Shown in pieces: positions 1 through 60,817 of a stretch of DNA of 64,000 bases (positions are counted from its first letter, which is position 1; each line of letters begins with the position of its first letter). Made by a program: the position numbers and the translations under genes. The DNA comes from Psilocybe cubensis (taxonomy: Eukaryota). The notes beneath the pieces are model-generated. The model saw only the letters and a program-made list of their open reading frames with translations. It did not search any database and was not told the DNA's origin. Location: the NCBI GenBank assembly GCA_017499595.2, contig CM039010.1, forward strand, positions 1,178,001-1,242,000, read 5' to 3'.

Positions 1-359
1 CTGCCGCTGCTGGTGAGGAACTTCAAGGTAAGCGCATTGCCGCTGACAGTGATACCATAAGTGCCTTGGTAGTCAGCACCGTCGACAGCACAGTTGGCCG
101 CACAAGTCTTGCCATCAGGGCAGAGCGTGGCGTTCCAGGAGTTGCCGGTGTAGCAGTTGGTGTAGCCGTTTTTGTCGTGGACCCAGCGCCAGTTGGCATC
201 GAGGACGACCTGACCGTTGGTCTCGGTCACGCAACCGCCGTTCTTGGTGCAACGTTGGAAAGGGAGCTTGGGGTGGACTTCGGCCGTGTAGGTACCGACT
301 TGCTGGGCAATAGCCACGGAGCCGAGAGCGAGAGCGAGAAGAGTAGCCTTAGGGAACAT
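1..359 (-). CDS. GH7 cellobiohydrolase I (Cel7), N-terminal part; continues beyond window start
   Basis: Manual translation from ATG at 359: [97 protein letters not shown]. Signal peptide plus GH7 DANWRW, NCYTGN and NCAVDGADY motifs. Not shown in the ORF track. Confidence 0.96.
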
Positions 360-430: not shown

Positions 431-726
431 TTTATAACAGCCCTGGACGCGGAAAATACCCGTGTCGACTCCAGATAATTGCCTGCAAAGCAGCATAATA
501 TCGAGTGGCTTAAGCCAAGTACACTGGTACGCGTATGAAAGTGGGATCCGAGCCTGCTAGGATACTTCTCGGAAAGTTGTTGCACCACCACAATGACCTT
601 GCCAAGGTTGGACGCCCATCCTTGGCGTTAAGCGCCTGGCCAAACATAAACATCCGCAAGGGTAGCTACCACAATTGACCACAATGATCGCGGTTGTTTT
701 GCCCTGCTTTGCGGGGTGAACTGGGG
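431..726 (-). promoter_or_regulatory. GH7 promoter: TATAAA box (431-436), CGG-triplet motif (548-572), two SYGGRG CreA/Cre1-type sites (711-716, 721-726)
   Basis: TATAAA on the minus strand about 72 nt upstream of the ATG; GCGGGG and CTGGGG 10 bp apart match the SYGGRG consensus. Confidence 0.55.
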
Positions 727-1338
727 TGAACCGAGATCTTCTGAAGTCACGGAGTTAATGGTGATAGCAGCCAAGAACCTTAAGTTATTTCAAAAACGCA
801 CATGAGTGTTCTCCCGTGGTAGATCCCAGGCATTAACCGAAGAATATGCGCTGAAAGAAATAAAGGTAAAAACTCCATGGTTCATGTAGAATGAGTCGTG
901 TTGAACATTTAACTCTTCGAATTGCGAGAAGTTCCCGCCATGCATAGTTGCTGGGACTGAGACTGGGAAACGGAAGGGAGCGCATGAAGGTCTATCCAGC
1001 TTCAACATCGTATCTGTCTGACTGAACACAGTAAGGCATAAACGTTTAATATACCCGAGGCGAAGTCACAGTAATTGGGTCCACAATAGTTGCCGATAAT
1101 CAAAATGACGGAAAATTGTTGGAATTACTAGCTGGGCTGGCACTACACCAGTCCAATGTTGAGCCTTGTGATGTTGGCGATTTTTACATGGAATAATTCA
1201 CATTTCGCTTATGGACCATCCAATCGAGTTTAGCGGTCTGAGAAAAACGATGCCACATGGATACCACTGGTCCGCGAAAGTAAGTGTGAGAGAGGAGTAA
1301 AAGAAGAAGTTAAACATTATGAAGTACGAACGACAGCT

Positions 1339-2172
1339 CTAGGAAACTTCTCGACCTTGTTTTGTTACTGACTCCTTCTCTCGCTTGATGCGTTCAACGC
1401 GGGCTTCAGCTTCAAGTTCGTGAACCACCATTTGTGCCCAAAGTGGAAACCCTCCTTTTTCGTAGGCAATGCTTAATCGTCCCTCGGCTTCCGACCACTT
1501 CCAATCTTCCATACCTTCCAAAGGTGGGTCTCCGCGTGCAGCATCTTCTTCTGATGCTCGGTGTATCCTTGAGGTTAAGCTCGGGGCAATCAAACGTATG
1601 AGGGTTCTCGCTCTGTGACCGAATTCACGCGCCTAAAAATCATTTAGCATCATGGATTAGTGCACGGAGTAGAAGATACGTACATCCGACACACCGAGTG
1701 TCGTTTTCACCATCCAAACCATCCCAAAACCTCCTACCGCGACCAGTCCCGTGGCAATGGCAAAAGCTTTGGCCGCTAGTAGGCCAGATGATGCGTTCAT
1801 CTGGGCAAGCGCTGATGAAAGGGATGGACCGTCGGCGTTCAAAGCTTCCTTGATGCTTTCGTGAACAACCGTTGTATTTTGCGGACTGGGAGCTGTTGTC
1901 ACAGGTAAAGCAGCAGCAGTTCCTGTCGCCCTTCTTGGCGGAGGTGCCGTCGAACCTTTCAGAGGTAACCGATTGAGTTTTCCTGTGCGCTGCCTACGTA
2001 GCATGAACAATGGAATGGCCAAAGCCAAACTCGTGCCAATGAACTTCAATCAACGATTCAGCATGACATATATTTTAAATAAGAGTACAATTACCGCAGA
2101 TACTGGAATCCATATAGGAACCCTACTTTTCGTATTTTCTGGCGCTGGTGGTGACGCCGACGAGTCAACCAT
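1339..2172 (-). CDS. Small membrane protein, Aim11/TMEM242-like (3 exons)
   Basis: MVDSSASPPAPENTKSRVPIWIPVSA|FIGTSLALAIPLFML...LAAKAFAIATGLVAVGGFGMVWMVKTTLGVSD|AREFGHRAR...; GT-AG introns and two hydrophobic helices. Family call is by motif resemblance only. Confidence 0.6.
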
Positions 2173-3486
2173 GAGGGTTTTCACCGACTTTGGAGAAACG
2201 AGCGCGAAGATATATGATTAGTCAGCATACACTTCGGCGGGATGTCATTTCACCCTCGTTTTTTCGTCCTTTCAACAAGTAATGCGCAGTCGACAATGGC
2301 TGAAATACTGCGTACTCAAAAGTCAATTTTTTTGCATTAAGAACAGAAAACGATGTTCGACTTGGTTATATTTTTCCAAAAGATGTACTATTGTGTTATG
2401 AATATCTCAAAAATTGAGCGTGTATCCCCTCGCTGCAACAAGGTCTGCGACGAACAACATTCATAAACGATCGATCTTTGCCCCCTTTCCCCTAACCATC
2501 ATCCACTATTTCAAGATGATGTAGTGAATATAGAGGCATGGAAGGTATGTTCCCAACTAACGTCCAATGAAAAAAATACAGGTAAAATACACGCTTCACA
2601 AAGACACAAATGTCGAGCTAGAAAGACTATAAATGAGAATAGATAATAAAAGAGTGAGAGTAATATATTGTACGCACCTCAGATGTAACAAAACACATTT
2701 CGAAAAATTGGGTTTACCAAGTCATGACTTCCGATATGTTCTCAATCCAGCCAGATCGTCAGCCCCTTCAATTCACGATGAATACATCGAATGGAAGAGA
2801 TGTTGTAGAAGTCCTTGAGAAAGAAAAGGTTAAAGTCAATTGGTAAAAGGAAACTGCATGTCGAAGTTCAAGAGCAAGTTGAGGAGGGACACGCAAAGAA
2901 TGAAAAAAATATCACCGTGTGAATATCGGAAACCGCCGTGTCGGCTTTCCGGCTTGGTATTATACACATAGTCATCGACGCCAAGCATGCAGTTCAGTTT
3001 CTCTCGCCATTTACTAGTAGCTCTCCCCAGTTTCAACCTTCGGACTGCTTTGTCACCAACGGAACTCTGAATGATGGCGGGACGAACCCTGGGGATCTTT
3101 GAGCCTAGTGTTTGCTCAAAGCTACAAGCCAGGCGGTCTCTTACAGCTTTGGGGTCAATCTATTATACACCGGCAATGATGCAACTCAATACCTGCTGTA
3201 TGATGATGTGATCTACTGAAATATGCATTTACATTGAATGGGGTACTCCCTCTTTCATCGATAAACTCACGATGCTTGGGACATAGCGGGCGTTAAAAAA
3301 CTACCTCGAAGAATGTCATCCATCACTAGGTTCGTCAAATCTGATTCATACGGTCTCTTCAAGAAAAAATGAAATCTCGTTTCTATTGCCCTCGGAGTTC
3401 CTCTAATTTTAGTTCGTGACCCCATCATGCATCAACCTTATTTAAATATTACAGCCGCAACACAAACCTTCCCCCAGACTCCCATC

Positions 3487-4828
3487 ATGACATTCGCATA
3501 TCGAAACCAGCCTTGGAAAGCCCTATATCTCGCAACACGAACAGCAGTTCTTCTATTCCAACTCCCGTTCTACGCCATTATATATATATATCCCGGCGCC
3601 CGTCCACGTCGAACCTGGTCAATTGGGCGCTCGCTCGTAATATTTGCTTTTCGCGCGTTCATCGATGTTCTATACAACACATCCCCTACTCTGATTGGCA
3701 GTGTGCGCCCAGTAGAGCAGATGACGCAGAAAGAAATAGAAGAGGCAGTGGAGTATGGCTTCGTTTGGGTTGACGGGGCGCCCGAGTTTGTCACTGGAGA
3801 AATCAAGGATGCTGCGCTTCTGAATGAAGTATCTCCAGCAAGGATATCTGGATACTGGTATGGAAAGCGTGATCCATATGGGAAGGCTGGACAGAGAGCA
3901 CTTCCAAATGAAAAGGTTATATATCACTTCCACGGTGAGTAAACTCATGGTGATATAGTTGCTGACATTCGTTACTTAAATTTGTTTCCTGAAGGTGGTG
4001 GATTTGTTGTTAGTCCTTCTGGGCCAACCTACGGAGATTATTATTGACTATACTATTTATTTACAGTCAGGAACTGGTCACCCTTCCAATATTCCAGGCA
4101 AAACAATGTTTGAAGGCTTGATGCAGTTCATTCCAGGAGAGCCAAGAGTATTTGCTCTAGAATACCGTCTGTCATCTACCACCCCATTCGCAAAAGCCAA
4201 CCCTTTCCCTGCCGCCCTGCTAGACGCAATCGCTGGGTACAGGTATCTCATACACGACATTGGGTTTCTTCCATCAAACATCATCATCAGCGGTGATTCT
4301 GCAGGCGGCCTGCTAGCCTTCTGGCTTGCTCAGTATATTTCAACAGCCAAGTATCCCGACCTACCGAATGCCGGGGGGCTTCTCCTGCTTTCTCCAACTG
4401 TAGACTGGGCCAACACACAAACGGGATCATCCTCTTCAATGGTACAGAACAAAGATACCGATTTTGTTGACAAGGTACTTCGAAGTGGATACCCTTGTCG
4501 AGCCCTCCTCGGCAAGATCTCAGAGGACGAAGTATACCAAAACGAGTGGATAGCACCAGGGTCTATCCATCTTTGTCACAAACCGGGAAAACATGCTAGG
4601 CTACCGAAAACCTGCATCGTAGCAGGTGGTGCTGAGCAGACGCTCGACTCGATGGTGACGCTGGCGAACCGACTCGCATACGACATGGGCCATGAAAAGG
4701 TGACGTTTTTGGAGGCAAAAGAGGGCACACATGATTTCCTTCTGTTTCCGTTATTTGAATTTGAAAAAATTGACACCTTGAAGAAAATAAAAAAGTGGGC
4801 GGAGGAGCAGATTTGGCCTACAGTCTAG
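3487..4828 (+). CDS. Alpha/beta hydrolase, HSL/Abhydrolase_3-type esterase/lipase
   Basis: YHFHG|GGFV oxyanion motif (14-nt microexon 3995-4008), FALEYRL, NPFPAALLDA, nucleophile elbow GDSAGG, C-terminal GTHDF; hydrophobic N-terminal anchor. Confidence 0.92.
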
Positions 4829-5726
4829 GTTCAGCCTTACGCAGAAAAACACAGTATCTGAGTCAATATACCGTCCAACGTGTTTTTATCAATAATTTGC
4901 CTCTTGTGTTTCTTGCTTATCTATATACACTCTTTTTCCATGTTGCGGACTATTACATAGATAAATGATGTGATGGAAGTTAGCGACCAAAAGAAACAGA
5001 GAATAATATCCCAACATTTTACCGTGGCCTGGAGCATTGACCAAGGCACACTGACGTATCTATATCTTCCTAGCAACTTCTGAAAAAGGCAGACGGAGTC
5101 CGAATCAGAGCAAACCAAGTCCACCAACACATAACACCAGCCGTCCTCACACCACACCGTGTACATCTTACTGCCAACGTCATCAAAGTCTTCTAATTGA
5201 ATAAAACTTTATGAATAGATATCTGCTAGACATTGAAGTAAATAACGAAGAGCGAATAATTAGTGCACATGCCACATGCAAGTCATAAAGAAAAGACAGC
5301 GTCCGAGTATGGCATGAATCTCGACACACATTAATTCCATGAACATGAAAACGAATCATGCACGTAGACAACGGACTACGATAGGAAGTGCCAAGCACGA
5401 GCGCAAGAGCGCCCATAAACGAGGGTAAATGACCGATTAACCTTACAACAATTTCCAAACAAAAAATCTTGAGAGACGGAGAGGGGGAGGGAGAGAGAAA
5501 TCGCCAGATTTTGTACATGCCATGTGTTGATGATAACGAAATCGTAAGACAGAACGGAGAGCTGAGGAAGGATGCGGAGGAATTCGACGGTTAGAGCAGG
5601 GTGCGCGATTTGTGACCGGGACAGAGTTTTGAAGCGAAGATGTGAAAGACAGCTTCATAATAGAACGAAAGGTAGATACAAAGTATGAGGCAACTCCTAG
5701 ATCTGGCATGATATATGACTCTCCAT

Positions 5727-7927
5727 TTAAAAATTCTCTGCACAAAAAGTCAGCACTGATGTGTGGAGCTACTCGGATGACGGAAACATACCCTTTCCGA
5801 AGAAGAACCTGGTGCCCTTGGGGTCTGAGTACTGGTTTGATTTCTGGTGAAGGAGCTTGGAGAGCGCAGGAGGACCGCAGAAGAACTGAACAGATAGAAA
5901 TTAACAATAACGACGATTATGCTTAAAGATATAAATACGCACAACTCCAACGTCGGTCTCGGGATGTTTCTCAACAATTGAGGGGAAAACACGATCCCAA
6001 TTGGGTCTGCCGAAGTGGGTGGGCGCACGGAGAGAGGTAATGGCGTCCTTTTCAGCGCCAACATCTTGAACCTGCATAGCGAGTCAATAAACGGTTCATC
6101 AGTTCGAAAAGAAAAGAAACACACGATGATGTTGTTCATCTCGTCTTCCTTAATCCTGGCAGTGAGGTAGATGTTGATCTCGATTCTACCTTGAGTATCC
6201 TGCTCTTCGATGGCGTGCAAAAGGGAATGGAACCACTCCGCAGTGCCATAGTCACGAATAACCCAAGTGAAGTAAACCTTGGACAATCTTGTTGGCTTGG
6301 AGTTGTTCAGGTTATTCATGCGGTACCAGATAGACTTCAGGATGCTAATTCGAATTTAATTGAGAGCCAATACATGGAAAAAGTGATGGACAACACTTAC
6401 GAAGCAAAAGGAGTAACACCGATACCCGCACCGACAAGCAGAACAGTCTCATATTTAAGGAAATCCTCACTGGCACTACCGAAAGGACCATCAACCATGA
6501 CACGGGGAAGGGTGCGATTCAGTGGTGGGTTGACATTGGTCCCGACAACCTTGCCACCAGCTGGAGTATCACCCTTGCCACCCTTGTCTCCTTTCTGAGG
6601 GAAGTCGCAACCAAGAGCCTTGGCAAAAGCGGTAGTGAAGTCTCCCGCGACACGGATGTGAACGGAGATGTAGTCTTCCTCAGGTGCGCTGAAAATTCTC
6701 AGTCAACGAATTTATATTTGGTTGTCATGGAAAAAATACCTGGTGAGAGTGAAGGGATGCCACTGGAAGTAGGAGACCTCCGGGCAAGAGAGGAAGATGT
6801 ACTGGCCAGCTCGGGTTGTAGTCTTTTCCTTCTTGATCTGAACCTCCATCACGTTGGAAGGGTGTTGGATAACCTTGGAGATGTAGGTAACATGGCGAGA
6901 GCGGATTTCGCGGAGAATGCGCTCTCCGATCCAGATAACACCACCGACAAGCCAGTATCTCTGAGAACCGGTTAGTAAAGTTGTAGATGCGGAAATAGAT
7001 AGATTAAATGCTCACCCAGAAGACACCAATGGTGTTGAATGAACAATAAGGAGGTCGGTCGGGTTGAATCATACAGAACATGCCGTGGAGTTGCCAGTTG
7101 ATGAAGAACACAATGAAGAGATGGTGAGAGTACCAGAAACGCTCGAATGTGGCCCGGCGAACTTTTTCTCTAGCAAACCAGACCATGATTCCGAGAGCAG
7201 CGGTCATGATCCAGCCAGTCACACCAGGTCCAGTGAGGAAGTTGGCGCCGAGGAAGGCGACAATGCGACTCGAGGTGTTCGTTCCCGCAATCATGGCCAG
7301 CTTGTAGAAGTTGACCATGTGCGCAAGAATGTGGACGGCACTTCCAATAACAATGGACCAGGCGGTTGCCTTGTGCAAGGTGATGTTCTTGTCAAAGGGG
7401 ATGAAGTCGTTCAGGGGGGTGCGTCGGAGGAAAGAGACGAAGTTACGGCAGACGGGGAGAAGAATGAAGATAACATCGACGTGAAGGACGAGCGCAGCAG
7501 TCCTAGCAGTAGCTGCATTAGATGATAAGATAAGTGTGCCAATCCTGATCAGACTTCAAGAGGACGCACCGAATGTCAACCCAAAAGTTGCCCTGGCCCC
7601 CACCAAGTTGTCTTTGAGTTGATAATGGACGAATCCAAAGACAGCAACGAGGAGATGGAGGAATATCCAAACTCCAAAGAAGAGCTGGCGGCCTCCCTCA
7701 TTGATCATCCATGTATCGAACTTGGTCCAGAAGCTTTTGGGCTTTTCAGGGGCCTGGGTACGGGATGAAGAGGTCAAAGTCCTCTGAAGCCCCTGCAATC
7801 TCCGTCTCTCCGTCTTGTTGCGCTGCAGATGAGCAGCTCCTGATTTATCTGAGAGGTCGGGATGATTTTCGATGGTCATGTTGGGCACCCTGCCATCGGA
7901 GAAGTCGAGTCCCGAGGAACGGTTCAT
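5727..7927 (-). CDS. noxB: NADPH oxidase catalytic subunit (gp91phox family), NoxB/Nox2-type
   Basis: Heme helices ([23 protein letters not shown]), QWHPFTL FAD motif, [32 protein letters not shown] and terminal GKENF*. The N-terminal extension before WMINEG is typical of fungal NoxB. Confidence 0.92.
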
Positions 7928-8203
7928 ACTCTACTAAGATCTAGGACGTCCTGCGCTTTGATAAAAGGAATGTGTTAAAGTACCGGCCAGCTGGTAAGAA
8001 GAGGAAGAAATGAAAAGGCAGGGGTGGGGCGGAGTAGTGTTGGTGAGAGGGATAGTATATCCTTGCCACTTCATAACAACATGATGGTGAATGTCCTATT
8101 TTGACAGGGCCCGGCCACGGGCGTTACCATAGTACCGGGTCTCTCATCTTTTTCTTGTTTCTTCTCATTCTAGACCCACGCTTATGTTCCTACCAGATCT
8201 TTC

Positions 8204-8549
8204 CACGCCGGACAAAAATGCTGACCAGTTAGCCTGGGTGTTGTCCTGACCAGTGACGTGACTAGTACCGTGACCAACTACATAGTGTCACACATACATT
8301 GTCACGCTAATTCATTATTAGTAGGCTCAACAGTAAATAACATATTACTTGATTGTTTAGTATTTCTTCTTACTACACACTGAGTTTCAACGCAAGACAA
8401 TCAAGTAATTTGCCATTTACTGTCGAGCCTACTAATAATGAACTAGCGTGACAACATATTTGTGACACTATGTAATCGGTCACGGTACTAGTCACGTCAC
8501 TGGTCAGGACAACACCCAGGCTAACTGGTCAGCATTTTTGTCCGGCGTG
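8204..8549. mobile_element. Non-autonomous foldback MITE (346 bp), CAC..GTG termini with 3-bp TSD; probable CMC/EnSpm(CACTA)-type
   Basis: Inverted arms 8204-8356 and 8397-8549 (153 bp; first 72 bp perfect, 10 mismatches in total), 40-bp loop, TTC immediately on both sides (8201-8203, 8550-8552), no coding capacity. Confidence 0.85.
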
Positions 8550-10804
8550 TTCATAACTGCGCATGCATATTCGTTGTTCAGCAACTACCCAAAGCTTGCT
8601 ACTTGCTTCTACAAAGCACATCCGCCATGAATCCCAGTCCAACGCTACCTACAATGGCAGATGGCCGAAATCAAGAATAGCTTGCCGGCCATCGCATGCT
8701 TCAAAAGCTCAGTACGATGACAATGATGGGCGTGTCGCCTTTCGACCCATATGCCGAATGATCCCTTGATTGGCTCTTCGCCATCTTTTCGTTTCACCGT
8801 CATCTTCACCGCATTCAAGCGTTATAAATATTTGACAATCGCTGTAGCACTCGAAATCGCCCCATGCATGGGTTGGATGTGCGAAGCCGATGTTAAATTT
8901 ATGAAGGCAACTTTAAAAAAACCTGAGCCCCAAAGCGGCATATTTAGAGCATCAAAGATTCAGAACGGCGCGCATAGGATGCACTCCCAGTCACTGAACT
9001 TGGTTCCAGCCAGGTCTATTCAACCCTGCCGACGCTCAAAATACACGTTCTTAATTTGGAGCAATGACGGTCTATTTCTTGACTGTTTGGTTGTTTTCGG
9101 AACGGCTGGTAGGTGTTGATAGCAACGTTTTCTTATGAGAGTTCCTAAGAACGTAGTAATTGACGAAACGGCTCTTTATGTTTTAAATAGGAGGCGCATC
9201 TTTGCCCAGTGCATTGACCAACACCCACGTGGCTTGATATCTTCATTTCTTTTGTCGAGTCCAGACTCGGTTCTCAAAGCAACAAGTCCGATTCACAATA
9301 AACGTTCAAAAAAAAGCACGGCAGGGCAGCCCAACCATACACACACCGGACGCTCAATTTGCAGTTGGCATTGGAGACTTGATATCCGTCTCCAGGACAG
9401 CAGTTAACTGAAAAGCTACAACCCTAATTCCACTCGCCGATACGAAACTTATGCGTTCTTCAGCGACTCCCCAGGTCTTCCCTGCTTGATCTACTAGTCC
9501 GTAATATCAGCAATAAAGCCTTGGGGGTACAAACTCTAAAATTATGGCGGGCCTCAACATCACGTTATTCATCATAAAAACACTTCGTTGGCCTAGACTA
9601 CCTATCGACCGCCACATCACATTGGTAGGGGACTATCTCCAAGACTATGACATAAATCGAACCCAGGTTACCAGCCGCGACGTCCAAGCGCAGCATAAAA
9701 GGTATTCGACTTGGACAGAGGCGCTACGGGACTGGCAAATGACGGTATCTGCATTAGAGAAAAGTACACTCTGTAAATCGATCAAGTAAAGTAAGCCAAG
9801 TTTCGGGGTGAGTTATGCACACAACCGCTTTTCCGAAACCGTGATCAGAAGGCTCTTCTTTATCAGATGTGTTTGTGCTACTTGGAAGAAAGCATGGTGT
9901 CCGTGACCACGATTCGTCCTATATTGCTCTATCTCTTGCCCGCTGCAACCTCGAAGAAGTGGCAACCCTCTCTGGCCTCCATCCCCATTCCAACATTTGC
10001 GGTCTGACTTCCCCTTGCTTTTTCATAGTACATAGTTCTACTGCACAGCTCTTGCAGCATTCTCGAGGTCATCGATCACTTCACAGATCACCAGAATATT
10101 CCGTTGGTTGATGATCAAATAACTCTGCGCCGTGTTCATATTGCGTAGCATCACTAGGTCTCAATTCACGAGTATGATCATGTTCCCAATCTTTGGCAAC
10201 ACTCGCGGCTGATTGTGATTTTTCCGAATCTCCTTCGTCGTCATCCTATCTCCTAACTTGGAACATTGCGTGCGCCACCCTGCCTAACCATCCATTGTTT
10301 CCATTATTGCAGCACGTCACGGTGGGTGGCGTATGACATTCGTGAGCACGAAGTCTTCAGATACGACAGTAACGGTCCCGAGTCCCTGAACCTCTCCATG
10401 TCTCTCCAGTATAGCGTTCTCGGAACGTCTGTTGAAATATGGACTTGTGATCCGTAGAAAATATCACTTGAAAGTTTTTAACTCTCATCTCTTTTGAGCT
10501 TTGAACTTCAAGGATTGCCAAGTCGATACTCAGGGTGCTCGTCCCATTCACTTCAAGGGACCCGAATTGTCTCTAATTCATTCTCACTTTTCCTGTCAAT
10601 GGGTGAATACGTACAAGAGCCGGCTTATCTATAGTCTTCAATTTTCCAGGTCATGTGTACCCCGCTTCGCTATCCTGCCGATGGGATTTTTTGACTTAGA
10701 TGTCTTCAAAGGTGAGAAACCTTTCTAATCTACTGTGTCTGGCGGCCATTTGATTATAAGTACTGGAATGATGAAAAACTGTTGACTTTGTTTTCATTCT
10801 CTCC

Positions 10805-13017
10805 ATGGCGGTCTCCGCCTTGACTCTTGCTGTTGCCACTCTCTTAATATCATGGGCTAAGAGGAAGCTGTTGGAGACAATCTACAGGAAAAGACACCCT
10901 TACCCACCTGGACCCAAGCCAATGCCTCTCATTGGTAATATGCTCGACTTCCCGGCGCAACATGCCGCGAAGGTGTATTTGGAGTGGGAAAAGACATATA
11001 ATAGTGGGCCTTTTGGTATCTGGCAAGAACGAGAATATAGTTGCTGACTCCAGTCAGGCCCTTTACTTCATGCAGAGGCTCTAGGGACCCATGTACTTGT
11101 AATCAATAGCTTGGATGACGCCAATGCACTTTTCGATCGGCCTGAACGCGCCAAGATCTACGCTGACAAGCCTCAAAAACCTATCTTGAAGCTGTAACTC
11201 TTGATTAATTGCATGCTTTTTTGTTGTTATTAATCTTATTTATAGGATAGGCTGGGATTCTATAAACCTTTCTATCATGCCTTATGGAGAGGAATGGAGG
11301 CAGCACAGGAAGATTTGCCATCAAAATTTCAACGTTCAGGCAGCACGGCAATACCAACCAGTTCAAGCAAAAAAAGTTCGCAATCTACTCCTAAATCTTC
11401 TTGAAAAGCCCGAACAGTTCAAAGATCACAGTAAGCTGTAAGAGTCAATTTTAACTCTACTTGTCATTGGCCTTTCTATCAGTATTATTGACTATAGATA
11501 ATTATCAGCTTCTCTGTATCTCTCTCGATATCTGCAATGTACGGACATGACGTTGAGTCAATCGAGGATCCGTGTGTGAAATTGGCAGATGATGCGCTCC
11601 AGCTTGGGCAGACGCTCTTAGTGCCTGGTGGGAGCTTGATCGATCTGGTTCCTATCCTTCGACACATTCCTGAGTGGTGTCCTCTGCTTCCTTCGAGGAA
11701 GGTCGCAGCCAAGGTGAACTATATGACCCAAGAAGTCTTAAAAATTACGCTGGATCATGTCAAAGAAAGTTTTGTGAGTGTTATCACCTTTTTCTTCTTC
11801 TTAGATCACTTATTACCGGTGCTGAAACTTGGTTACAATAATGGCAGAAATCAGGAACGGTTGTACCTTCGCTGGTAACAAGGTTTTATGACAAAAAATA
11901 TTCATTTGGAGCTACTCAAGCAGAGGAAGACTTAATAAAAAATGTTGCATACACGGTATACGGGGGTATGTCTGCTTTGGTTTGAAACCTTCAACTTTCT
12001 GAACCTTTGGGATGTGCATTTCAGGTGCCTCTGATACGGTAAGCCATTGTATGAACCTTTAGATTTGATTACTTACAACCATATTCTAGACAACTTCAAT
12101 TACAATAACATTTATTTATTGCATGGCCATTAATCCCGACATCCAGAGAAAAGCGCAGGCCGAGATTGACAAGGTGGTTGGCTCACATCGCCTTCCAGAA
12201 TTTGCAGATCGGGAGGTGCTTCCATACATCGAAGCTATATACCAAGAGGTACTACGGATGTGGGCCCCACTGCCTCTTGGTATGCCACATACTACCTCAC
12301 AGGATGACTATTATAAAGGCTATTTTATTCCCAAAGGCAAGTAACGACCCATCTATAATGCGCCGGACAATGATGACCTAGAAATCTCGATCTCGATTAT
12401 TAGGGACTACCGTCTTTGCTAATATATGGTAAGCTGCAAATCAACTGAATGAATCACAGTATCCAAACTCCTTTTTTTAGGGCAATGAATTATAACAACG
12501 AAACCCATCACTATCCTGATGTATTCAAGCCTGAGAGGTATTTTGATGAAGACGGTAGATTGATAAAGGAAAAAGTACTTGCATACGGATTTGGTCGCAG
12601 GCAAGCTCACTTTACTATTTCCCTATGTCACCTAAGAATTCTCTGATGATTATTTGCTTCTTCTAGAGCGTGTGTTGGAAAGCCAGTGGCTAGTTCTTCT
12701 GTGAGCTCTAAGTCAAGATCGAGTAATTGATTTCTGTGTCTAATCATTGGTATCGGTTTATTAGGTTTGGCTAATGATGGTGTCGATACTTGCGGCTTTC
12801 AACATTGCCAAATCAACCGACCACAACGGAAACGTGGTTGAGATCGACGACGATTTTGAGAATGATGGGCTACTCCTGTACGTCAAGTTATCTCCATTTT
12901 TACTTAGTGTTTGCATATTGCTCATTTCGGCGCTAAAGTCATAAGAAACCTTTTAAATGCTCTATTATTCCCCGCTCATCTGAGTCGAAACTTAGCAAAT
13001 TGCTTGCAGAATTTTAG
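10805..13017 (+). CDS. Cytochrome P450 (CYP64-clan/CYP5144-like), paralog 1, multi-exon
   Basis: N-terminal anchor, YPPGPKPMPLIGN, MPYGEEWRQHRK, I-helix GGASDTT, QEVLR (ExxR), FKPERY, heme motif YGFGRR|ACVG. Confidence 0.93.
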
Positions 13018-13564
13018 TAAGACTTTCTGGGATTTGAGTAGCATACCTAACGATATTATGGCGTGTACTGCCTTTGCTCGACATTCGCTTTGATGACGCC
13101 GGGCATACTAGCCGAAGATAGGAATTTTAAAAAATGTGCCGTCCTTAAGTCACCCTATAGATTTCCGGATGTACAACAAGGTGAATGCTGTCTAAACCTT
13201 GTTAGACCTGCCAGCTTGCAATATGGTGGAGGTAGCCTTATAATAGAATGCTAGAATCCAAAGATAATTCAAGGGGAACCAAGGGCAATGCCAAAGCCAA
13301 CCGCCTTTAGACTTCAAGTTTTTGCTTCAAGCGAATATGGAAGAATTACCTAGAATTTTGACAAGACTCTCACACCACGTCACTCCGAATCGGTTGAAAT
13401 GATGGTGCTTCTCTTTCCTTCCAAAAGGATCGAAACGTAAGATTTCCCTGCTCCCAGTTAAGGGTGAGAAGTGGTCAGATGGCTCTTATCTCTTCATAAA
13501 TACCTGGCTGTGGGCTTTAATGCATGATGCTGTTCTTGAACTTTAATCACCTCTTACTACGAAC

Positions 13565-15738
13565 ATGTCCGGTTTCTCCAGTCAATCCTTCGCGCTTGTC
13601 ATTGCCATTGTGATATCATGGGCCACCATGAGATTACTGAAAGCCTTTATTATTAATATAAAAAACAGACCACCCTACCCTCCTGGACCTCGGCCAAAGT
13701 TTCTCATTGGCAATATGTTCGATTTACCGTCCGTTGATTCCCCAATGGAATATGTGAAGTGGGAAAAGCGATATAACAGTGTGTCTAATTCTGTTCCACT
13801 ATATGTAACCTGACCTGGTTATAGGCCCTTTGCTCCACGCAGAAGTTCTGGGGAACCACATCCTCATAGTCAATGGTCTGGATGATGCAATTGCACTGTT
13901 TGAGCGACCAGAGAGGGCTAGGATTTACTCTGACAAACCAGCCTTACCTATTCTTGATCTGTAAGATGCCTCTTATTAGATGATTTACGGTTGTCATAGG
14001 TTAAAAATTTGGTGCGGATTACAGGATTGGAACAGAGATAAACATCGGTTTGATGCCGTACGGTGAAAAATGGAGAAATCATCGGCGGGTCAGCCACCAA
14101 AATTTCAATGTCCACGCTGTGCTACAGTACGAGCCAGTTCAAGCAAAGAAAGTGCGGGATCTACTCCATAACATTCTCAATAGCCCTGAGAGATTTCATG
14201 ACCATAATAAATTGTAATGTCTTTCCATTTCTTTTCTTCTAATCTTGCTCAATCCTAGTATTATTTCCAGGTTGTCAACTTCTGTCACCCTGTCAGCAAT
14301 GTACGGATACGAGGCTAAATCCGTTGATGATCCATGCATTGTTCTGGCGGATGAAGCGCTTAGGCTTACGTCTCAGCTGGTCGTTCCTGGAGGTAGCATG
14401 ATTAACGATATTCCAGTACTCCGCCACATTCCCAAGTGGTTTCCGGGTGCTTATTCCAGAAAACTTGCCGCTAAATCAAGAGCTCTGAACGAGGAAATAT
14501 GGAGAATCCCAATTGACTATGTGAAGAAAACATTAGTGAGTAAGATTTACACTGCAATCTAATGTGTGGAACATTGAATAGCAGTTTACCAGGATGAAGG
14601 TACCTTTTCACCATCTCTAGTAGCAAATTTCTACGAGAAAAAACTTGCATATGGGGCATCTGAAGAAGAGGAAGTCGCAGTTAGAAACACCGCCTATACC
14701 GCCTACGGAGGTATTCATCTATTGAACAACGGTTGACCTGTGCTCACACTGCTCCCTGATAGCGGGATCCGATACGGCAAGCGAATGTACTTGTTTTATT
14801 TTTGTTTGGCATACTTAACACAGTTTTACTAGATGGGATCCATCACCTACACATTCGTATATTTGATGATTTTACATCCCGACGTTCAGAAAAGAGCCCA
14901 CGACGAAATTGACAAAGTAATAGGATCAAATCGCCTACCTACTTTGGCTGATCGTAAGTCTTTGCCATACGTCGAAGCCATATATAGAGAGGTATTACGA
15001 CTATATCCACCCCTTCCCATTGGATTACCTCGAATCACCGCTGAGGATGATTATTATAATGGATACTATATCCCCAAAGGCAAGCAATTATCCGTCTTTC
15101 CGATACACAACGCCTTGAGCTCATATTGGGGTTTTAGGAACGACCGTGCTTACAAACATATGGTCAGCAGAACTCATTTTACTAATGCTATGCAATCATA
15201 ACATAAGCCACAGGGCAATGTCGCACAGCGAAAGGATCTACAGCGAGCCGTATCGATTCAACCCCGAGCGGCACTTTAACGCCAATGGAGACTTGGATGG
15301 AAAAAGGACACTGGGGTATGGATTTGGACGCAGGAAAGCAAATTTTTTTGCTTAAGTTTACATCGCCTCACATTATAATTACAGATCATGTGTGGGCAAA
15401 CCTATGGCCAGCAATACGGTGAATCCTCCTCTAGACTGTGGTGACCCTATCCCAATTTCTTAACATTATATGCCACAAGGCCTGGCTAATGATGGCTTCC
15501 ATACTTTACGCGTTCAACATAACGAAGGCGAAAGACAGGGAAGGGAATGATATCAAAGTAAACGACGAGTTTGAGACTACAGGAATTCTGTGGTGAGTAA
15601 ACTTAATCCTGCTCAAGTTATCACTCTTTCGTGATTATGATTTTCATTTCTCGTGCCATACCAAGTCGCAAGCAAGAATTTAAGTGCGATTTTCACCCTC
15701 GTTCCGCCGAGATACTGCGAGTAATTTTGGAAGCCTGA
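13565..15738 (+). CDS. Cytochrome P450 (CYP64-clan/CYP5144-like), paralog 2; needs a non-canonical GA-AG intron, otherwise a pseudogene
   Basis: YPPGPRPKFLIGN, MPYGEKWRNHRR, GAGSDTM, REVLR, FNPERH, YGFGRR|SCVG; same intron positions as paralog 1. Confidence 0.85.
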
Positions 15739-16075
15739 GAGTTAATTAAGCCTTGCTCAAGGTATTTAACTCAGAAATCATAGGTTTTTATTGACAAAAG
15801 ACCTCAGATGGCGCAAGAGCGGATGTCAAGCTAAAAAAATTGAAGTTCTTTTTGTTTATTAGAGATCATGTGACTGTGAGAATGTGACCGTAAAAACCAT
15901 CAACACTTTCAAAAAGCAATTTGATTTCAATTCAAGTTCTTAATACTCAACCAACCCAGAGCCCTGCGTATCTACCTCGCGCTCTCAAACGACAATCTCT
16001 CTACCTTTTTTCTCTTTTTCAACGCTGGATTTTCGTGCATCCAAGACTCTGTACCGGTTTCATCAACATTGGCGA

Positions 16076-16988
16076 TTAATCTGGCGTAGTTCCAGTGAAA
16101 CCATGAATCGTGTGGTCATTGCAGCCATTTGGTGTTTGATATCCATACGGGCCAAGGTTGATGTACACATGTCTATTCCCCTTACTGTCAGCACAAATAA
16201 GCCAGGCCTACGATGATCAATCCGAATCAGTGTCTTGTCATCACCCCCGGCATAGGCACAAATGTTGGGGAACGTACATTGCTCTGAGGCCTTGTTATTG
16301 CTGATGAGGTCCATTCTACAGTGTCGCCACTAAACTTGAATGCGCCAAGTGTATCTTTGGACTTGGACCAGGACACTTTAAGCTTCGAAACTGTGGAATT
16401 TGCGCGAGGCTCAACGACAGCATATAGAGGTGTATCTCCTTTATGAATCAATTGACCATCGGTAATTTGGAATTGGGCGGCGGTTACCGCCTCTCCGAGA
16501 ACGGCATCAGAAACAGTGTTGGGAACTTCAGACTGCAAATACTTGTGGAAGTTGGGCGAAGTCTATCAGGTACCTGTCAGTCAGATATATGCGCGATTTT
16601 TTGTGGCGTAGCACTCACGACGGCGCGAATGAAATTCCATCCTGGGGTGAGCGTTGGCGCTGGGCCACCTGGCCCTTTGGTTGTGCTGATACCACCACCC
16701 GGTGATGAGTCTATAGTCGTGGTTCCGCTTCCAGGGAACGATGTTGTCGTTGCGGCGCCTGGAAGACACTGCGAATACCATTGATTTGAGAATGTGCAAG
16801 TCCATCCTGAAGGACAGGTAGTAGGTCCTGACCATCCAGTACCACCGCACTGTTCTGACAATCAGCACTCGGCTCTAATTAGGGAACCATGTTGCAAGAG
16901 TATACACCTGTCCATATGAAGGAGCAGTCTGCGACAATGCAGTTCCTGCGAAAGCCAGACCGAAAGCAAGGAAGATGGTTCGGGTCAT
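16076..16988 (-). CDS. Secreted CBM1 + S/T/P/G linker + ~150-aa uncharacterised domain, copy A (4 exons)
   Basis: [56 protein letters not shown]...[20 protein letters not shown]...[48 protein letters not shown]. Confidence 0.92.
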
Positions 16989-17602
16989 TTTTAGAGATGG
17001 GGTTCAGTTGGTATATTTTTGGCACCTCAAATATAACCGTCCACATACCGCCAAACACTACTGTGAGCGACGTATGCTCCGAGCATCAGGCAATTTTTCG
17101 GCTTCGTTGTCATACTTCTCCAAAGGCTCGTGCATGCTGGACTGTTGTCCGAAGAGCTAGCCGATTCGGAACCCAAAACGGATGATATTCGGGCCATTAT
17201 TAAATGGAAAGGATTGCAAGTCTTTCCGGGATCTGTGGTGGAGGTCAGACTAGCACTGGCTGCCGCCACCACATGACGGACACCGACACCTGGAACGAAG
17301 GGCATGTGTAAAACTTTGCCAGTGAAATAGAGGCGAATTAATGCGATGTAAGCTCCGCGGTCCTGCGATGCACCAACACAGCCGCTGCTTCTACCGATCC
17401 TGTCCAACATTCTATCTAGTTCTATTTCTTGGCATTCTCGCGACCAAAAAAAATGGGTCTGATCTGGCAACAAATGACATCTTAGCCTGGTTACTGAGTA
17501 GTGAAGTCTTGGTCAAACACTCAAAAAGGGATATTGTGGCGCATATCATCTTTTTGGAATTATTTCTTCTCGGGCGTTGTAAGTACATTGTGATTTCAAC
17601 TT

Positions 17603-18507
17603 TTACGCTGTGGCAGTCGCTCCAGTGTAGGCGTGGATAGTCTCGTCAGCGCATCCAGCTGGTGTCTGGTAGGAGTACGCGCCAAGGTTAACATACAAGT
17701 CTTTGTTGCCTGCAGCATCTGGGCAAACCAGCCATGCCTACATGCAGGAATCAGCCAATTGACACGGACTCAAGGAGGATCGATAAAGATTCTCACATTG
17801 TTCTGTGGTCGTGTGATGCTGGGGTTGCTCCACTCAACCGTATCGCCACTGAAAACAAACGTGCCGCTGGTGGCTGGCGTAGTTGACCACGAAACTTTTA
17901 GCTTCACCACTGTAGAATTTGCACGAGGCTCGACCACAGCATACAGGTTCTTTCCGTTAGCGTTCTGGATCAGTTGTCCTCCAGTAATCTGGAACTGAGC
18001 GGCCGTGCTAGGTTCTCCGAGTACGGCATCCGACGCAGTGTTGAGCACCTCAGACTGCAGGTACTTGTGGAAATTTGGATCTTCCTGTGGAATAACATTA
18101 AATCAGGTACACAAACAGGCATTATTTGTTTAACGTACAACAGCTCTTATGAATGAGTATCCCGCCTGGAGAGTGGATGATCCACCAGCTGCGGTTGTCG
18201 TTGACGATGGCGCCGTGGTTGACCCTCCGGGGACGGTTGATGTTGTGTGGGGTGCACTGCTGGAGGCAGCTCCGGGAAGGCATTGGGAATAATATGGGTT
18301 GGAGTATGTACAAGTCCATCCAGAGACGCAGGTCGTCGCTCCTGACCATCCCTGGCCTCCACACTATAGAGAAATGGTGATGAGTATATCTATGGCATCC
18401 ATAGTCACTTGTTGGTATTTTCACACCTGTCCATACTGTGGGGCCTGCGCAATGACCTGGCCAACTAGGGTGCCCGCTAAAGTCAGAAAAAGAGCTAAGC
18501 TTGCCAT
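17603..18507 (-). CDS. Secreted CBM1 + linker + uncharacterised domain, copy B (4 exons)
   Basis: [56 protein letters not shown]...[20 protein letters not shown]...[49 protein letters not shown]. Confidence 0.92.
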
Positions 18508-19332
18508 GTCTTTCGAATGTGTAGATGATACCCAGCACACAGTATGACGGATTGAAAACTCATCGTTTTATACTCTTGAATTTTTCTTTATTTTTAGAGC
18601 AGCTACACGCAGGAAACCGACAAAGGCCTTACTTCGGCTTGGCTTCAGTGATATGAAGAGCCTAATAATCGAAAACAATTCCTCGGTGACCTAATAAGGT
18701 GGTTTTGTTTGTTGATTCGCGTCGACTGAATACTTCAACTTTACAGAAGTTATTTTTAGACAAGGTCATCCAGAGGGTAGGCGGAGAAATACGCAAAAAG
18801 AATCCGAGCTTAGTCTTGACGCTAACTTGATATCGTAGCGCTGATTATCATTCGAATAAACATAAGGCGAAGTAAATATGACTGTTATATGTCATTTGAA
18901 ATCTAGCAATTGAAAATCAGGGACTCACAACAATAGTATCTACATTTTCACAGTTAAAAAACATTCAGGAAACCTTCCTGACAACGGCACCCAGTCGTAA
19001 TATCTTCGGCTGAAAGTGACTTTGCAATAGGTCTACACCGACAGGTGCAAAAACGATGGGTTAATTGTGACATAATTTTACCGGGGGGTTCAGCAAATAC
19101 AAAAACTTAACTACCTGACTCAATGGCACTGATGTTTCTCTAAGGAGTTACATTGAGAGGGGTCAGTTATGAAATGATACCGACTGATCTTGCAAGTATA
19201 AATTGGTTTTAAGTTGCACGTTGGACCCACAAGTCTATACTTCCCATGACCAAGAAGCATCGGCTGGCGACTGATGATCAATATATACAGGAGAGAAATG
19301 GGTCGTATTTTTGGTTAATCTCCAGAAGTTAT

Positions 19333-20220
19333 CTAAGCCGTAGCAGTAGCTCCGGTGTATGCATGAATTGTTTCATCTGCGCACCCAGCTGGGGTCATGT
19401 AGTCATAAGCGCCGAGGTTAACATAGAGGAGTTTGTTGCCCGCGGCGTCGGGGCATACCAGCCATGCCTGATATAGCGAAATGCATTAGAAATTTTCGTA
19501 TAGTGCTATCCCGTACTCACGTTGTCTTGTGGCCTGGTAATGTCAGGGGTACTCCACTCGACAGTATCTCCACTGAAGACAAAGGTGCCACTGGTGGCAG
19601 GCGTTTTTGACCACGATACCTTAAGTTTGTTGACCGTTGAGTTTGCCCGAGGCTCGACAATAGCGTAGAGCGGTGTTCCGTTTGCATTCTGGATTAATTG
19701 CCCATTCGTAATTTGGAACTGAGCAGCTGTGCTTGGGTCTCCGAGAACGGCATCAGATGCCGTGTTTAGTATCTCAGATTGCAAGTATTTGTGGAAGTTG
19801 GGGTCTTCCTGTAAAAATTTGACATCAGAAATCTACTGGATACCACATTATAGTACATATACTTACAACAGCTCGGATGAACGAGTAGCCAGCCTGAAGT
19901 GTAGCAGATCCTCCTGTGGCAGTTGATGTCGAGGATGGTGGTGAACCTCCGCCTCCAGTTGACGATGGGGCAGTCGTGCTTGGTGCACTAGATGCAGCTC
20001 CTGGAAGGCATTGCGAGTAGTATGGGTTGGAGTATGTGCACGTCCATCCAGAGACGCAGGTAGTGGCGCCCGACCAGCCTTGACCTCCGCACTAGATAAA
20101 GAACGAATGAGCAAAGTCACCACAGAAGAAGAAAAAACTGACTTGGCCATATGCTGGCGATTGAGCAGAGGCATAGCTGATGGCGGACGATACTGCCAAT
20201 ATAAAAGTCAATCTCGTCAT
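19333..20220 (-). CDS. Secreted CBM1 + linker + uncharacterised domain, copy C (4 exons)
   Basis: [55 protein letters not shown]...[20 protein letters not shown]...[49 protein letters not shown]. Confidence 0.92.
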
Positions 20221-20851
20221 TGCGGCTGAGATTCGAGGAATGTGATACTGAGAGTCCGGCCCACTTCATGCACTTTTATACTGTTTCGTTATGTGTTTTT
20301 GCGGCATACTGCTGGCACGAAGGCGAAAACCGAACAAGAGGCTCTACTTCGGTTGAACGAGAATTCACAATGCAAATCTTGAAGTCGTGGTGAGCATATA
20401 ACCAATGACATCAATATTTATCCCTCCTCATCGGCCTCATGAGTGTTCATAACGCTATTAATATGCACTGGCAACGATCCTAAAAACAGCCAATTTTATC
20501 AAAGAGCACATGAAAGGACCAACTTCCCTACCCACCATCATCCCAATTTTTGTCAATCTGATCCATAGCGCAATTGCTATCGCAAACTTAAAGTCAGTCC
20601 AGATGTGCGGCGTTGATGAATCAGTCATTGACAAGATAAAGAGGATAAAGATGGATTGTGATAAATATAAAAGTTATTTCTTCGCGAAATCGTCGGATGG
20701 TATTTGATGCCTACTTCTGAGGTGGTCTTAATGAGAGTCAGAGTGAATATGCTGCGTTCTAATATAAGCATAAGAGTACAAAAATATAGACCTATATTTG
20801 AAAATTGTTTCAGCTTCTGTTTTCGAACATGATCCTGAGAAACCTGGAATC

Positions 20852-59368: not shown

Positions 59369-60817
59369 TTAGTTCGGTGCATGGGAACTATTATGGTAAA
59401 CCCAATTCACGAAGGGAGGCTGCCGTCCAGCAATATGCCACTGTTGAATAAAATGGCCAATTTTTTGGGAGAGCTGATGATGAAGTATTCTCGCCGGTAC
59501 AGGAACTCGAAGGTGTATCACCATGAGGGAAGGAATCATGGCCTCAAGCACTTGACGGTGAAATAAGTTGAATTCGACGAGGTTGAGAATGCTTTTCCCG
59601 GCCAAGGTGAGTTGGTGGCAATGACGGAATGTCTTTAACAGGTCGGTCAGAGGGAGGTGATCATCATACCAGCGGTGTGTCAAGGAGCATGATACCTCCA
59701 GAACGAGAGCAGTCGGTTCCGCTATGTGATTTAAGCTTTCTCTTACGTTTATGAAGACGTCGCATAGAAGCGCATTGGCCAGGACACCACCCATTCCAAC
59801 ATCCATTTCCACGGTATGTAGTACATTGTATTCGAACGTAAAGCGACGAGATTGCATTGGCAGGTTCCAGTCGAAGCACATCGTAATATCCAATGCGATA
59901 CAGTGTTCGGTGAATCTAAAGTGCCAGTCCAAATGACTTCCCGGGTACTGTAGCCTCGCTGACTGGAGCTCATGATACAATTTCCGAAGAATACGCTCGA
60001 ATGCTCGCCGAGTTCCCTGAAGATCTCTGTCTTCCGTTTTCGTGTGCTGGCCCGCAACGATATGGACATAACAAGTTGACGGAAACTCGAGAAATTCGAT
60101 CAACTCGTTACAGTTCGCAATTTCTGAATTGTATCGGAATTCCTTGAGATATGGGAGATTAACGACCCGCCTCGATCTGTGGACGGGTGCGTCTGATCCT
60201 TCCATTGTGTTGATACTGCTTCCATTGCAGCCAGAGAGATAGAGGGTCTGAAGAGTGGGCTGGGTTTCAAGTATATTCAACCAGTCGCTGGTGAATATAT
60301 CATGAACTGACGTGTCACTCTTGACAATCTCCAGGTGAGTGAGCTGGAAACTGGTCCAATTTCCCTTTTCAAGACAAGTAACCTCTGTGTAGCGCAGAAC
60401 CAGGCACTTGAGTTGTGGGGCCCACAAGGTCGACAAGAGTTCGCCGACGCACTTCGAAGGAGCATCTGTCGGTTCCGGGCCAATCAGTTTAAGCTCCTGT
60501 AAATCTGGACATGGGCGCTGCAACCTCTCTAGAATGGGGGAAATATTGTCTCCTGGTTGGTAGTTTATGCTAACGGTTGTCAGCCCTTGAGGTCTAGGTA
60601 GCGCCGTTCCAAAATTACTTGCAGGGTTGGTTCTGGTCGGAACTTGGAACAAAGGAAGTGTTCTAGAAATCCCGTCAGCTTTTGGCCATTCAGGTACAGG
60701 ATCGTTGTTGGCTCGGGTTGGGAACAATTCGAACTTGGTAACATCGCGAGGTTCGGACTTCAAAGGAAATCCGTTATTGAGGTTTGCCATTCTTTTTTCT
60801 TCGTATTCTGACACCAA
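59369..60817 (-). CDS. Hypothetical LRR/RNI-like protein of the Agaricomycete F-box-associated type; true start probably in an upstream exon (~60890-61070)
   Basis: 482-codon uninterrupted ORF with repeated LxxLxL patterns (PDLQELKL, PQLKCLVL, PTLQTLYL, LPYLKEF); no clear F-box in this exon. Confidence 0.65.
   Translation of the reverse strand: MVSEYEEKRMANLNNGFPLKSEPRDVTKFELFPTRANNDPVPEWPKADGISRTLPLFQVPTRTNPASNFGTALPRPQGLTTVSINYQPGDNISPILERLQRPCPDLQELKLIGPEPTDAPSKCVGELLSTLWAPQLKCLVLRYTEVTCLEKGNWTSFQLTHLEIVKSDTSVHDIFTSDWLNILETQPTLQTLYLSGCNGSSINTMEGSDAPVHRSRRVVNLPYLKEFRYNSEIANCNELIEFLEFPSTCYVHIVAGQHTKTEDRDLQGTRRAFERILRKLYHELQSARLQYPGSHLDWHFRFTEHCIALDITMCFDWNLPMQSRRFTFEYNVLHTVEMDVGMGGVLANALLCDVFINVRESLNHIAEPTALVLEVSCSLTHRWYDDHLPLTDLLKTFRHCHQLTLAGKSILNLVEFNLFHRQVLEAMIPSLMVIHLRVPVPARILHHQLSQKIGHFIQQWHIAGRQPPFVNWVYHNSSHAPN

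What the first reader, a model, noticed from the sequence alone, without database searches (positions are those of the whole stretch)
548..20352. Shared upstream motif CCGA..AGG-N8-CGG in GH7 and all three CBM1-X promoters
Seen on the + strand, in the same orientation relative to four minus-strand genes and about 90-215 bp upstream of each ATG. GH7 548-572: CCGAgcctgctAGGatacttctCGG. Copy A 17079-17101: CCGAgcatcAGGcaatttttCGG. Copy B 18617-18637: CCGAcaaAGGccttacttCGG. Copy C 20330-20352: CCGAacaagAGGctctacttCGG. The AGG-N8-CGG spacing is invariant and the spacer is T-rich. GH7 is not a paralog, so gene duplication does not explain its copy. Known: Zn2Cys6 cellulase regulators (ClrB/CLR-2, Schizophyllum Roc1) bind fixed-spaced CGG triplets. 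Inference: a common cellulose regulon, which independently supports a cellulolytic role for the unknown domain.
Basis: partly seen in the sequence, partly recalled or inferred. Interest (0 to 1): 0.7.

Follow-up and report, generated by a model that had tools for sequence, protein, structure and literature searches.

The report
Cellulose-gene promoter switch in mushrooms
The four DNA sites are variants of a short repeated signal found upstream of many cellulose-degrading genes in this mushroom, and a mirrored double copy of it is kept upstream of a cellulose-binding protein of unknown role in several mushroom species, which gives a testable target for the master regulator of wood decay.

Summary
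It merges two real things. (1) A direct repeat, CCG-N8-CCG (CGG-N8-CGG on the other strand): the top non-TATA dyad in 36 held-out promoters (11/36, background 5%), replicated in 23 more (9/23). AGG-N8-CGG is its degenerate form; the GH7 site is one of these. (2) A 23-bp palindrome, CCGA-N6-G[GC]C-N6-TCGG, in 12 of 15 orthologous CBM1-DUF7908 promoters from other agarics. It fits two back-to-back direct repeats sharing a centre. The likely binder is Roc1/Ace3, whose closest characterised relative, AmyR, binds CGG-N8-(C/A)GG; but the published Roc1 motif (CGG-N-CCG) is absent from all four promoters, and binding is untested. The unknown domain models as a beta-trefoil, so co-regulation supports a role on cellulose, not catalysis. 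Organism: Psilocybe cubensis by protein match. New variant of a known kind; interest 0.5.

The parts
1..359 (-). 5' end of a GH7 cellobiohydrolase gene (ATG 359; runs off the window; C-terminal CBM1 lies outside)
   Evidence: PF00840 match, E 2.9e-89; ATG; CBM1 at C13:1176693
431..436 (-). TATA box of GH7
   Evidence: TATAAA at -77
450..463 (-).
   Evidence: a like site at -101 to -119 in 4 of 5 GH7 promoters; scores only moderately on the matrix (32% of background windows reach it)
559..572 (-).
   Evidence: best matrix site in this promoter, reached by 1.7% of background windows; CCGA-N7-CC at -161 to -222 in 4 of 5 GH7 promoters
548..551 (+). Extra CCGA arm of the GH7 site (spacing N19); probably incidental
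   Evidence: absent from the four GH7 paralogs; 0 of 27 such sites in other CAZyme promoters have it, 3 of 88 in background
16076..16988 (-). CBM1-DUF7908 gene, copy A (242 aa, P0104)
   Evidence: one spliced contig in run X10, RNA status a guess
17079..17101 (.). 23-bp palindrome CCGA-N6-G[GC]C-N6-TCGG, copy A
17179..17192 (-).
   Evidence: coordinates; kept in A-type orthologs of L215/L217/L218 and L219
17603..18507 (-). CBM1-DUF7908 gene, copy B (242 aa, P0003)
   Evidence: exon 100% identical to P0003
18617..18637 (.). Palindrome of copy B, 2 bp shorter (N15)
   Evidence: shares 17-19 identical bases with B-type orthologs that have the 23-bp form
18567..18572 (-). TATA box of copy B
19333..20220 (-). 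CBM1-DUF7908 gene, copy C (241 aa, P0008)
   Evidence: one spliced contig in run X14, RNA status a guess
20275..20280 (-). TATA box of copy C
20330..20352 (.). 23-bp palindrome, copy C

Best explanation
All four sites are binding sites for the agaric cellulose activator, most likely the Roc1/Ace3 Zn2Cys6 factor. Its basic site is a direct repeat of CGG triplets with 11-bp period (CGG-N8-CGG, A/T-rich spacer), one strong half-site (TCGG) and one tolerant half-site (CGG, AGG, GGG, TGG), working in either orientation 80-350 bp above the ATG. The GH7 promoter has two such sites. CBM1-DUF7908 promoters have a doubled form: two repeats back to back that share the central tolerant triplet, giving CCGA-N6-G[GC]C-N6-TCGG. 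Shown here: enrichment, spacing specificity, conservation, and fit of the palindrome's interior to the independently trained matrix on both strands. Inferred: the identity of the factor, activation by cellulose or cellobiose, and the two-site geometry. The target protein is a secreted CBM1 plus beta-trefoil, likely a non-catalytic accessory of cellulose attack (inference).
For: Direct repeat: 11/36 in the discovery set, top non-TATA dyad of about 43,000; 9/23 in a set gathered afterwards, p=1.6e-6; background 56/1118; hydrophobins 1/19. 17/51 after collapsing paralogous promoters; shuffles give 4.1+/-1.8 against 20 observed, 0 of 300 reach it; spacing 8 gives 20 promoters against 3.0 expected, the other 23 spacings 0-7 against 1.8-4.9. 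Palindrome: 12 of 15 orthologous promoters, 6 of 7 after collapsing, background 0/1118; 22 of 23 columns identical against 181 of 303 outside in three related species. Its positions 12-14 fit the matrix on both strands. Literature passages: Ace3/Roc1 is closest to AmyR with a highly conserved DNA-binding domain (PMC12997857); AmyR binds CGGN8(C/A)GG (PMC5468973). The only CBM1-without-enzyme gene in the Dichomitus table is induced 353-fold on cellulose and 74-fold on cellobiose, and not in the ace3 mutant.
Against: The Roc1 ChIP motif in the preprint is CGG-N-CCG, confirmed by mutation; it is in 0 of the 4 window promoters yet itself enriched in 6/59 (p=0.01), so two factors or two binding modes may be at work. 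AmyR's degenerate half is the 3' one, and CGG-N8-AGG is not enriched here (6/59, p=0.49). The matrix generalises weakly: cross-set rank tests give p=0.025 and 0.001 but only 1/23 and 4/36 in the top 5%; as single repeats copies B and C score poorly (66% and 47% of background reach them). AA9 (5/20) and GH10 (1/7) promoters mostly lack the motif, although AA9 genes are prime Roc1 targets. A repeat-plus-TATA pattern shows no genome-wide excess (7 against 12). The orthologous palindromes share ancestry, so the probabilities overstate the case. The Dichomitus gene's orthology is inferred, not shown. ATGs were called by hand and the background is not a true promoter set.
Confidence: 0.58

Rival explanations
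1. The direct repeat and the palindrome are real cellulose-regulon sites, but a different Zn2Cys6 factor binds them, while Roc1/Ace3 uses CGG-N-CCG and acts upstream or alongside.
For: The preprint's Roc1 motif differs and was tested by mutation; it is separately enriched, 6/59, mostly in esterase, AA9 and GH10 promoters. Roc1 binds near 52 transcription-factor genes; 60% of CAZymes raised by SiROCX overexpression were not classed as direct targets.
Against: The AmyR-like DNA-binding domain of Ace3/Roc1 predicts exactly this spacing. The T. reesei ACE3 half-site CGGAN(T/A)3 is enriched too, 30/59 against 21%.
Confidence: 0.22
2. The palindrome is a separate, family-specific element read by its own symmetric dimer, unrelated to the direct repeat; the link to GH7 is a coincidence of CGG-rich promoters.
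For: The palindrome is in 0 of 59 other CAZyme promoters. Only 14 genome-wide matches against 7 control; none of the 9 of 12 non-window sites inspected looked like a CAZyme promoter. One strand can never match perfectly at the shared centre, and copy B tolerates a 2-bp deletion.
Against: The interior fits the independent matrix on both strands, including the central G[GC]C. A factor with one target family is less economical (inference). One ortholog type lacks the palindrome and carries two tandem perfect repeats instead.
Confidence: 0.15
3. The pattern is an artefact of paralog inheritance and post hoc fitting.
For: True of the composite pattern as written: 109 against 97, 0/59.
Against: Replication in a second set, spacing specificity and shuffles; island-like conservation in promoters that otherwise share only 7-11-base words.
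Confidence: 0.05

Closest known systems
AmyR / InuR site CGG-N8-(C/A)GG (Aspergillus; PMC5468973, passages)
   Same: Direct repeat of CGG with an 8-bp A/T-rich spacer; one half-site may be AGG.
   Different: Here the tolerant half is the 5' one (AGG-N8-CGG enriched, CGG-N8-AGG not), the targets are cellulases and hemicellulases of a basidiomycete, and a doubled palindromic form exists.
Roc1 of Schizophyllum commune (bioRxiv 10.1101/2021.06.08.446897, passages and section 25)
   Same: Agaricomycete Zn2Cys6 cellulase activator; CGG-based site 200-300 bp above the ATG.
   Different: Published site CGG-N-CCG is an inverted pair with 1-bp spacer, absent from the four promoters. The journal version could not be read.
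SiROCX of Serendipita indica (bioRxiv 10.64898/2026.03.05.709870, passages)
   Same: Roc1 ortholog with a DAP-seq motif enriched at CAZyme promoters.
   Different: The motif is given only as a figure logo; the text has no CCG or CGG string and supplements are closed. It may already equal the direct repeat found here.
ACE3 of Trichoderma reesei, CGGAN(T/A)3 (PMC7412840, passage)
   Same: CGG followed by A/T; half-site enriched here (30/59); predicted ortholog of Roc1.
   Different: Described as a single half-site, with no fixed partner.
Beta-trefoil lectins, CBM13/CBM42 and fungal protease inhibitors (for the target domain)
   Same: Fold: best Z 11.3, rmsd 3.0 over 122 residues, with about 100 chains at Z 8 or more.
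   Different: 7-16% identity; no single family stands out; fused to CBM1.

Membership tests
Zn2Cys6 fixed-spaced CGG element | Two CGG triplets at one preferred spacing in co-functional promoters | tested here: met
   Spacing 8: 20 of 59 against 3.0 expected; other spacings near expectation
Zn2Cys6 fixed-spaced CGG element | Conserved in orthologous promoters against a diverged background | tested here: met
   12/15 promoters; 22/23 against 181/303 columns
Zn2Cys6 fixed-spaced CGG element | Bound by a zinc-cluster protein and needed for induction | not testable with these tools
   needs EMSA, DAP-seq or reporter
Roc1 site as published (CGG-N-CCG) | Inverted pair with 1-bp spacer in the promoter | tested here: not met
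   0 of 4 window promoters within 600 bp
Roc1/Ace3 regulon | Cellulose induction lost without Roc1/Ace3 | tested here: inconclusive
   True for the Dichomitus CBM1-only gene 3111517; its orthology to this family is inferred only
Roc1/Ace3 regulon | A Roc1/Ace3 gene in this genome, with a site in its own promoter | not tested
   No reference sequence was available from a call; the Zn2Cys6 gene in the window is too long to be it
AmyR-type site | Direct repeat CGG-N8-CGG | tested here: met
AmyR-type site | AGG accepted in the 3' half-site | tested here: not met
   6/59 against 105/1118, p=0.49
ClrB / CLR-2 site | Inverted CGG-N8-CCG or CGG-N11-CCG (spacings partly recalled) | tested here: not met
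   2/59 each against 40/1118; 0 of 4 window promoters
Known glycoside hydrolase family (target domain) | Pfam or fold match to a catalytic CAZyme domain | tested here: inconclusive
   Pfam gives only CBM_1 and DUF7908; fold matches are beta-trefoils; absence from a list does not exclude activity

The most novel reading that the evidence does not exclude
The working site of the agaric cellulose activator Roc1/Ace3 at core cellulase genes is an AmyR-like direct repeat, not the published CGG-N-CCG, and a widespread family of CBM1-beta-trefoil proteins has kept a palindromic double site built from two overlapping repeats, a cooperative switch that makes it one of the most strongly induced members of the regulon and marks it as an overlooked non-catalytic part of mushroom cellulose attack.
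Probability: 0.3. Interest if true: 0.72.

Novelty: new variant of a known kind. Interest (0 to 1): 0.5.

Why it matters
Direct targets and the binding site of the basidiomycete cellulase activator are still open: the DsAce3 paper states that direct promoter binding is yet to be shown, and the Roc1 preprint found CAZymes as a group not enriched among its ChIP targets. A replicated, spacing-specific motif gives exact probes for binding and reporter tests, a way to predict regulon members across mushroom genomes, and a short cellulose-inducible element for engineering. It also points to a conserved CBM1-beta-trefoil protein as a cellulose-regulon member worth assaying.

Tried and rejected
CGG-N7-CCG, my first lead: enriched (8/59) but overlaps the direct repeat at the GH7 sites; folded into it. 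GCCAAG next to the B-type palindrome: 15/36 in the first set, not replicated (4/23). Repeat plus TATA genome-wide: 7 against 12 control; hits not inspected. Palindrome as a regulon-wide motif: rejected. The Zn2Cys6 gene in the window as Roc1: rejected on length, about 1170 aa against 78.9 kDa tagged; upstream repeats score low. Strain variation: listed holders were near-identical and run X9 showed no listed difference inside the three sites (16 rows not shown), too little variation to test. No RNA holder was listed. First structure job (exon only) was uninformative, pLDDT 52. Foldseek gave no match at E<=0.001. ESM Atlas gave only DUF7907/7908/7909 clusters. Earlier scan findings: none in three look-ups. 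Not held: journal version of the Roc1 paper and the ACE3 binding paper. Rows left out: one duplicate AA9 and duplicate hydrophobins on C10; 9 of 28 hydrophobin matches; five CBM1 places with no clear start or a broken copy; GH5 hits without CBM1; 6 of 17 metagenome loci (near-duplicates or too little upstream DNA).
Full report
Setting. The window is G000:C13:1178001-1242000 of a 46.6-Mb genome. An exon of copy B is 100% identical to a Psilocybe cubensis protein. The three CBM1-X genes are the only copies in the genome. X is Pfam DUF7908; 139 longer relatives were found, and the named ones among the 120 listed are mushroom-forming fungi. P. cyanescens has the same three copies, annotated as one fused protein, so the triplication is older than that split (inference).

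Observation. I collected AA9, GH7, GH10, GH6 and CBM1-bearing genes by family search, called ATGs by signal peptide, and used positions -350 to -51 on both strands. Controls were 19 hydrophobin promoters and 1118 background windows from 400 kb of evenly picked DNA: 240 anchored on TATAAA and 878 tiles of matching GC. The composite pattern is in 0 of 36 and 0 of 23 held-out promoters and occurs 109 times genome-wide against 97 for the control.

The regulon motif. An unbiased dyad scan of the first 36 promoters ranked CCG-N8-CCG first after the TATA box: 11 of 36 against 5%, p=1.1e-6, borderline after correcting for about 43,000 dyads. It then replicated in 23 promoters collected afterwards: 9 of 23, p=1.6e-6; hydrophobins 1 of 19. 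It survives collapsing paralogs (17 of 51) and dinucleotide shuffling (20 observed, 4.1+/-1.8 shuffled, 0 of 300), and only spacing 8 stands out among 24. Sites lie on either strand (16 sense, 20 antisense within 600 bp), 12 of 36 between -200 and -100. The strict or loose form is common at GH7 (3/4), GH6 without CBM1 (4/4), CE1 (3/3) and other CBM1 genes (9/11), and scarce at AA9 (5/20) and GH10 (1/7). A matrix trained on the 59 promoters reads roughly tCCGAnAaTTnnCCg; it transfers only weakly between the two sets.

The GH7 site. It is the best matrix site in its promoter (1.7% of background windows reach it). Four of five GH7 promoters have CCGA-N7-CC at -161 to -222 and four of five have a second site at -101 to -119; here that is 450-463. 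None of the paralogs has the extra arm, which follows 3 of 88 such sites in background and 0 of 27 in CAZyme promoters. So GH7 shares the direct repeat, not the palindrome.

The CBM1-DUF7908 element. A metagenome scan returned 17 loci; 11 gave 15 usable promoters from three agaric lineages plus a cluster of species closest to Leucoagaricus/Leucocoprinus proteins. After collapsing near-identical ones it is 6 of 7 against 0 of 1118. In three related species 22 of 23 columns are identical against 181 of 303 outside; across lineages the promoters otherwise share only 7-11-base words. Copies A and C have the 23-bp form; B has lost two bases. The three promoters without it (one gene in one lineage) have two tandem perfect repeats instead, and A-type promoters keep a perfect repeat that matches window 17179-17192. 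The palindrome is family-specific: 0 of 59 other promoters, 14 sites genome-wide against 7, and none of the 9 other sites inspected looked like a CAZyme promoter.

Mechanism. A repeat read from the left arm wants C-C at positions 12-13; one read from the right arm wants G-G at 11-12. They clash only at position 12, which predicts G-[GC]-C, seen in 8 of 8 sites. Scored with the matrix trained without these genes, positions 12-14 and, less strongly, the spacers fit on both strands; the sites are homologous, so the probabilities there are too small. I infer two overlapping sites for one factor, giving either cooperative or orientation-free binding. The 11-bp period would put both half-sites on one face of the helix (general knowledge).

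Which factor. Passages read: Ace3/Roc1 forms a clade closest to AmyR with a highly conserved zinc cluster, and direct binding is not yet shown in Dichomitus (PMC12997857); AmyR binds CGGN8(C/A)GG (PMC5468973); ACE3 binds CGGAN(T/A)3 (PMC7412840). Against this, the Roc1 preprint reports CGG-N-CCG with a mutation test. That motif is in none of the four promoters and in 6 of 59 others. The SiROCX motif is visible only as a logo; bioRxiv supplements are closed and may bear on novelty. Ten library searches showed no listing that reports CGG-N8-CGG for basidiomycete cellulases or this palindrome; most hits were seen only as listings, the library lacks subscription journals, and the journal version of the Roc1 paper is not held. 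PMC13561427, PMC13532241 and bioRxiv 10.1101/2022.06.07.495237 (passages) gave no motif.

The target. With 84 sequences the model is confident (mean pLDDT 86), and domain X matches beta-trefoil lectins, CBM13/42 modules and protease inhibitors about equally (best Z 11.3, rmsd 3.0, 122 aligned). In the DsAce3 supplements, 1 of 18 CBM1 genes has no enzyme domain; it rises 353-fold on cellulose, 74-fold on cellobiose and not on xylan, and stays flat in the mutant. Dichomitus has a member of this family (P0086), and the gene's count-to-FPKM ratio (18.3 against 27.7 for CBM1-GH6; my arithmetic) suits a shorter transcript, but identity is not shown. Co-regulation with cellulases is likely; catalysis is not indicated.

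Verdict. Real and functional-looking, redefined: a replicated direct-repeat motif of the cellulose regulon plus a conserved doubled form at one gene family. Known class of element, geometry not found in print in my searches, binding untested. Interest 0.5.

Noticed in passing
window 40.2-44.9 kb, minus strand (ATG 44944): Zn2Cys6 plus PF04082 transcription factor of about 1170 aa (P0122), conserved in agarics. Three CCG-N8-CCG lie upstream (45101, 45125, 45264) but score low on the matrix. By matching contig lengths it shares a contig with the CBM1-DUF7908 gene in about a dozen other species (hand count, no control; probably ordinary synteny).
   Followed up: partly
G000:C1:645007, 656661, 4136334, 4140058: Four GH6 genes without an N-terminal CBM1; their promoters share a near-identical site of the direct-repeat type at about -150 to -170, one of them followed by a CGG at spacing 17.
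   Followed up: partly
G000:C2:2469548 (minus): Another N-terminal CBM1 gene with a short unassigned C-terminal domain, not found by the DUF7908 exon search; it has CCG-N8-CCT at -146.
   Followed up: no
G000:C5:3143104 and C11:838966: Two GMC-oxidoreductase-like (AA3) genes that end in a CBM1; family assigned by eye from translations.
   Followed up: no
G000:C10:366-560 kb and 869-1052 kb: Identical AA9 and hydrophobin matches about 500 kb apart suggest a large duplication or an assembly artefact.
   Followed up: no
window 3983-7555, 14.8-15.7 kb, 26-33 kb, 53-56 kb: Ordinary neighbours: alpha/beta hydrolase, ferric reductase, P450, SPIN90/Ldb17, phosphorylase, polysaccharide deacetylase, Sds3-like; long ORFs at 50871-53246, 59372-60841 and 61375-62889 have no Pfam match.
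   Followed up: no
window 18637-18643 and L217/L219 promoters: GCCAAG abuts the palindrome in B-type promoters across species; it resembles a PacC site (recalled), but its enrichment did not replicate.
   Followed up: yes
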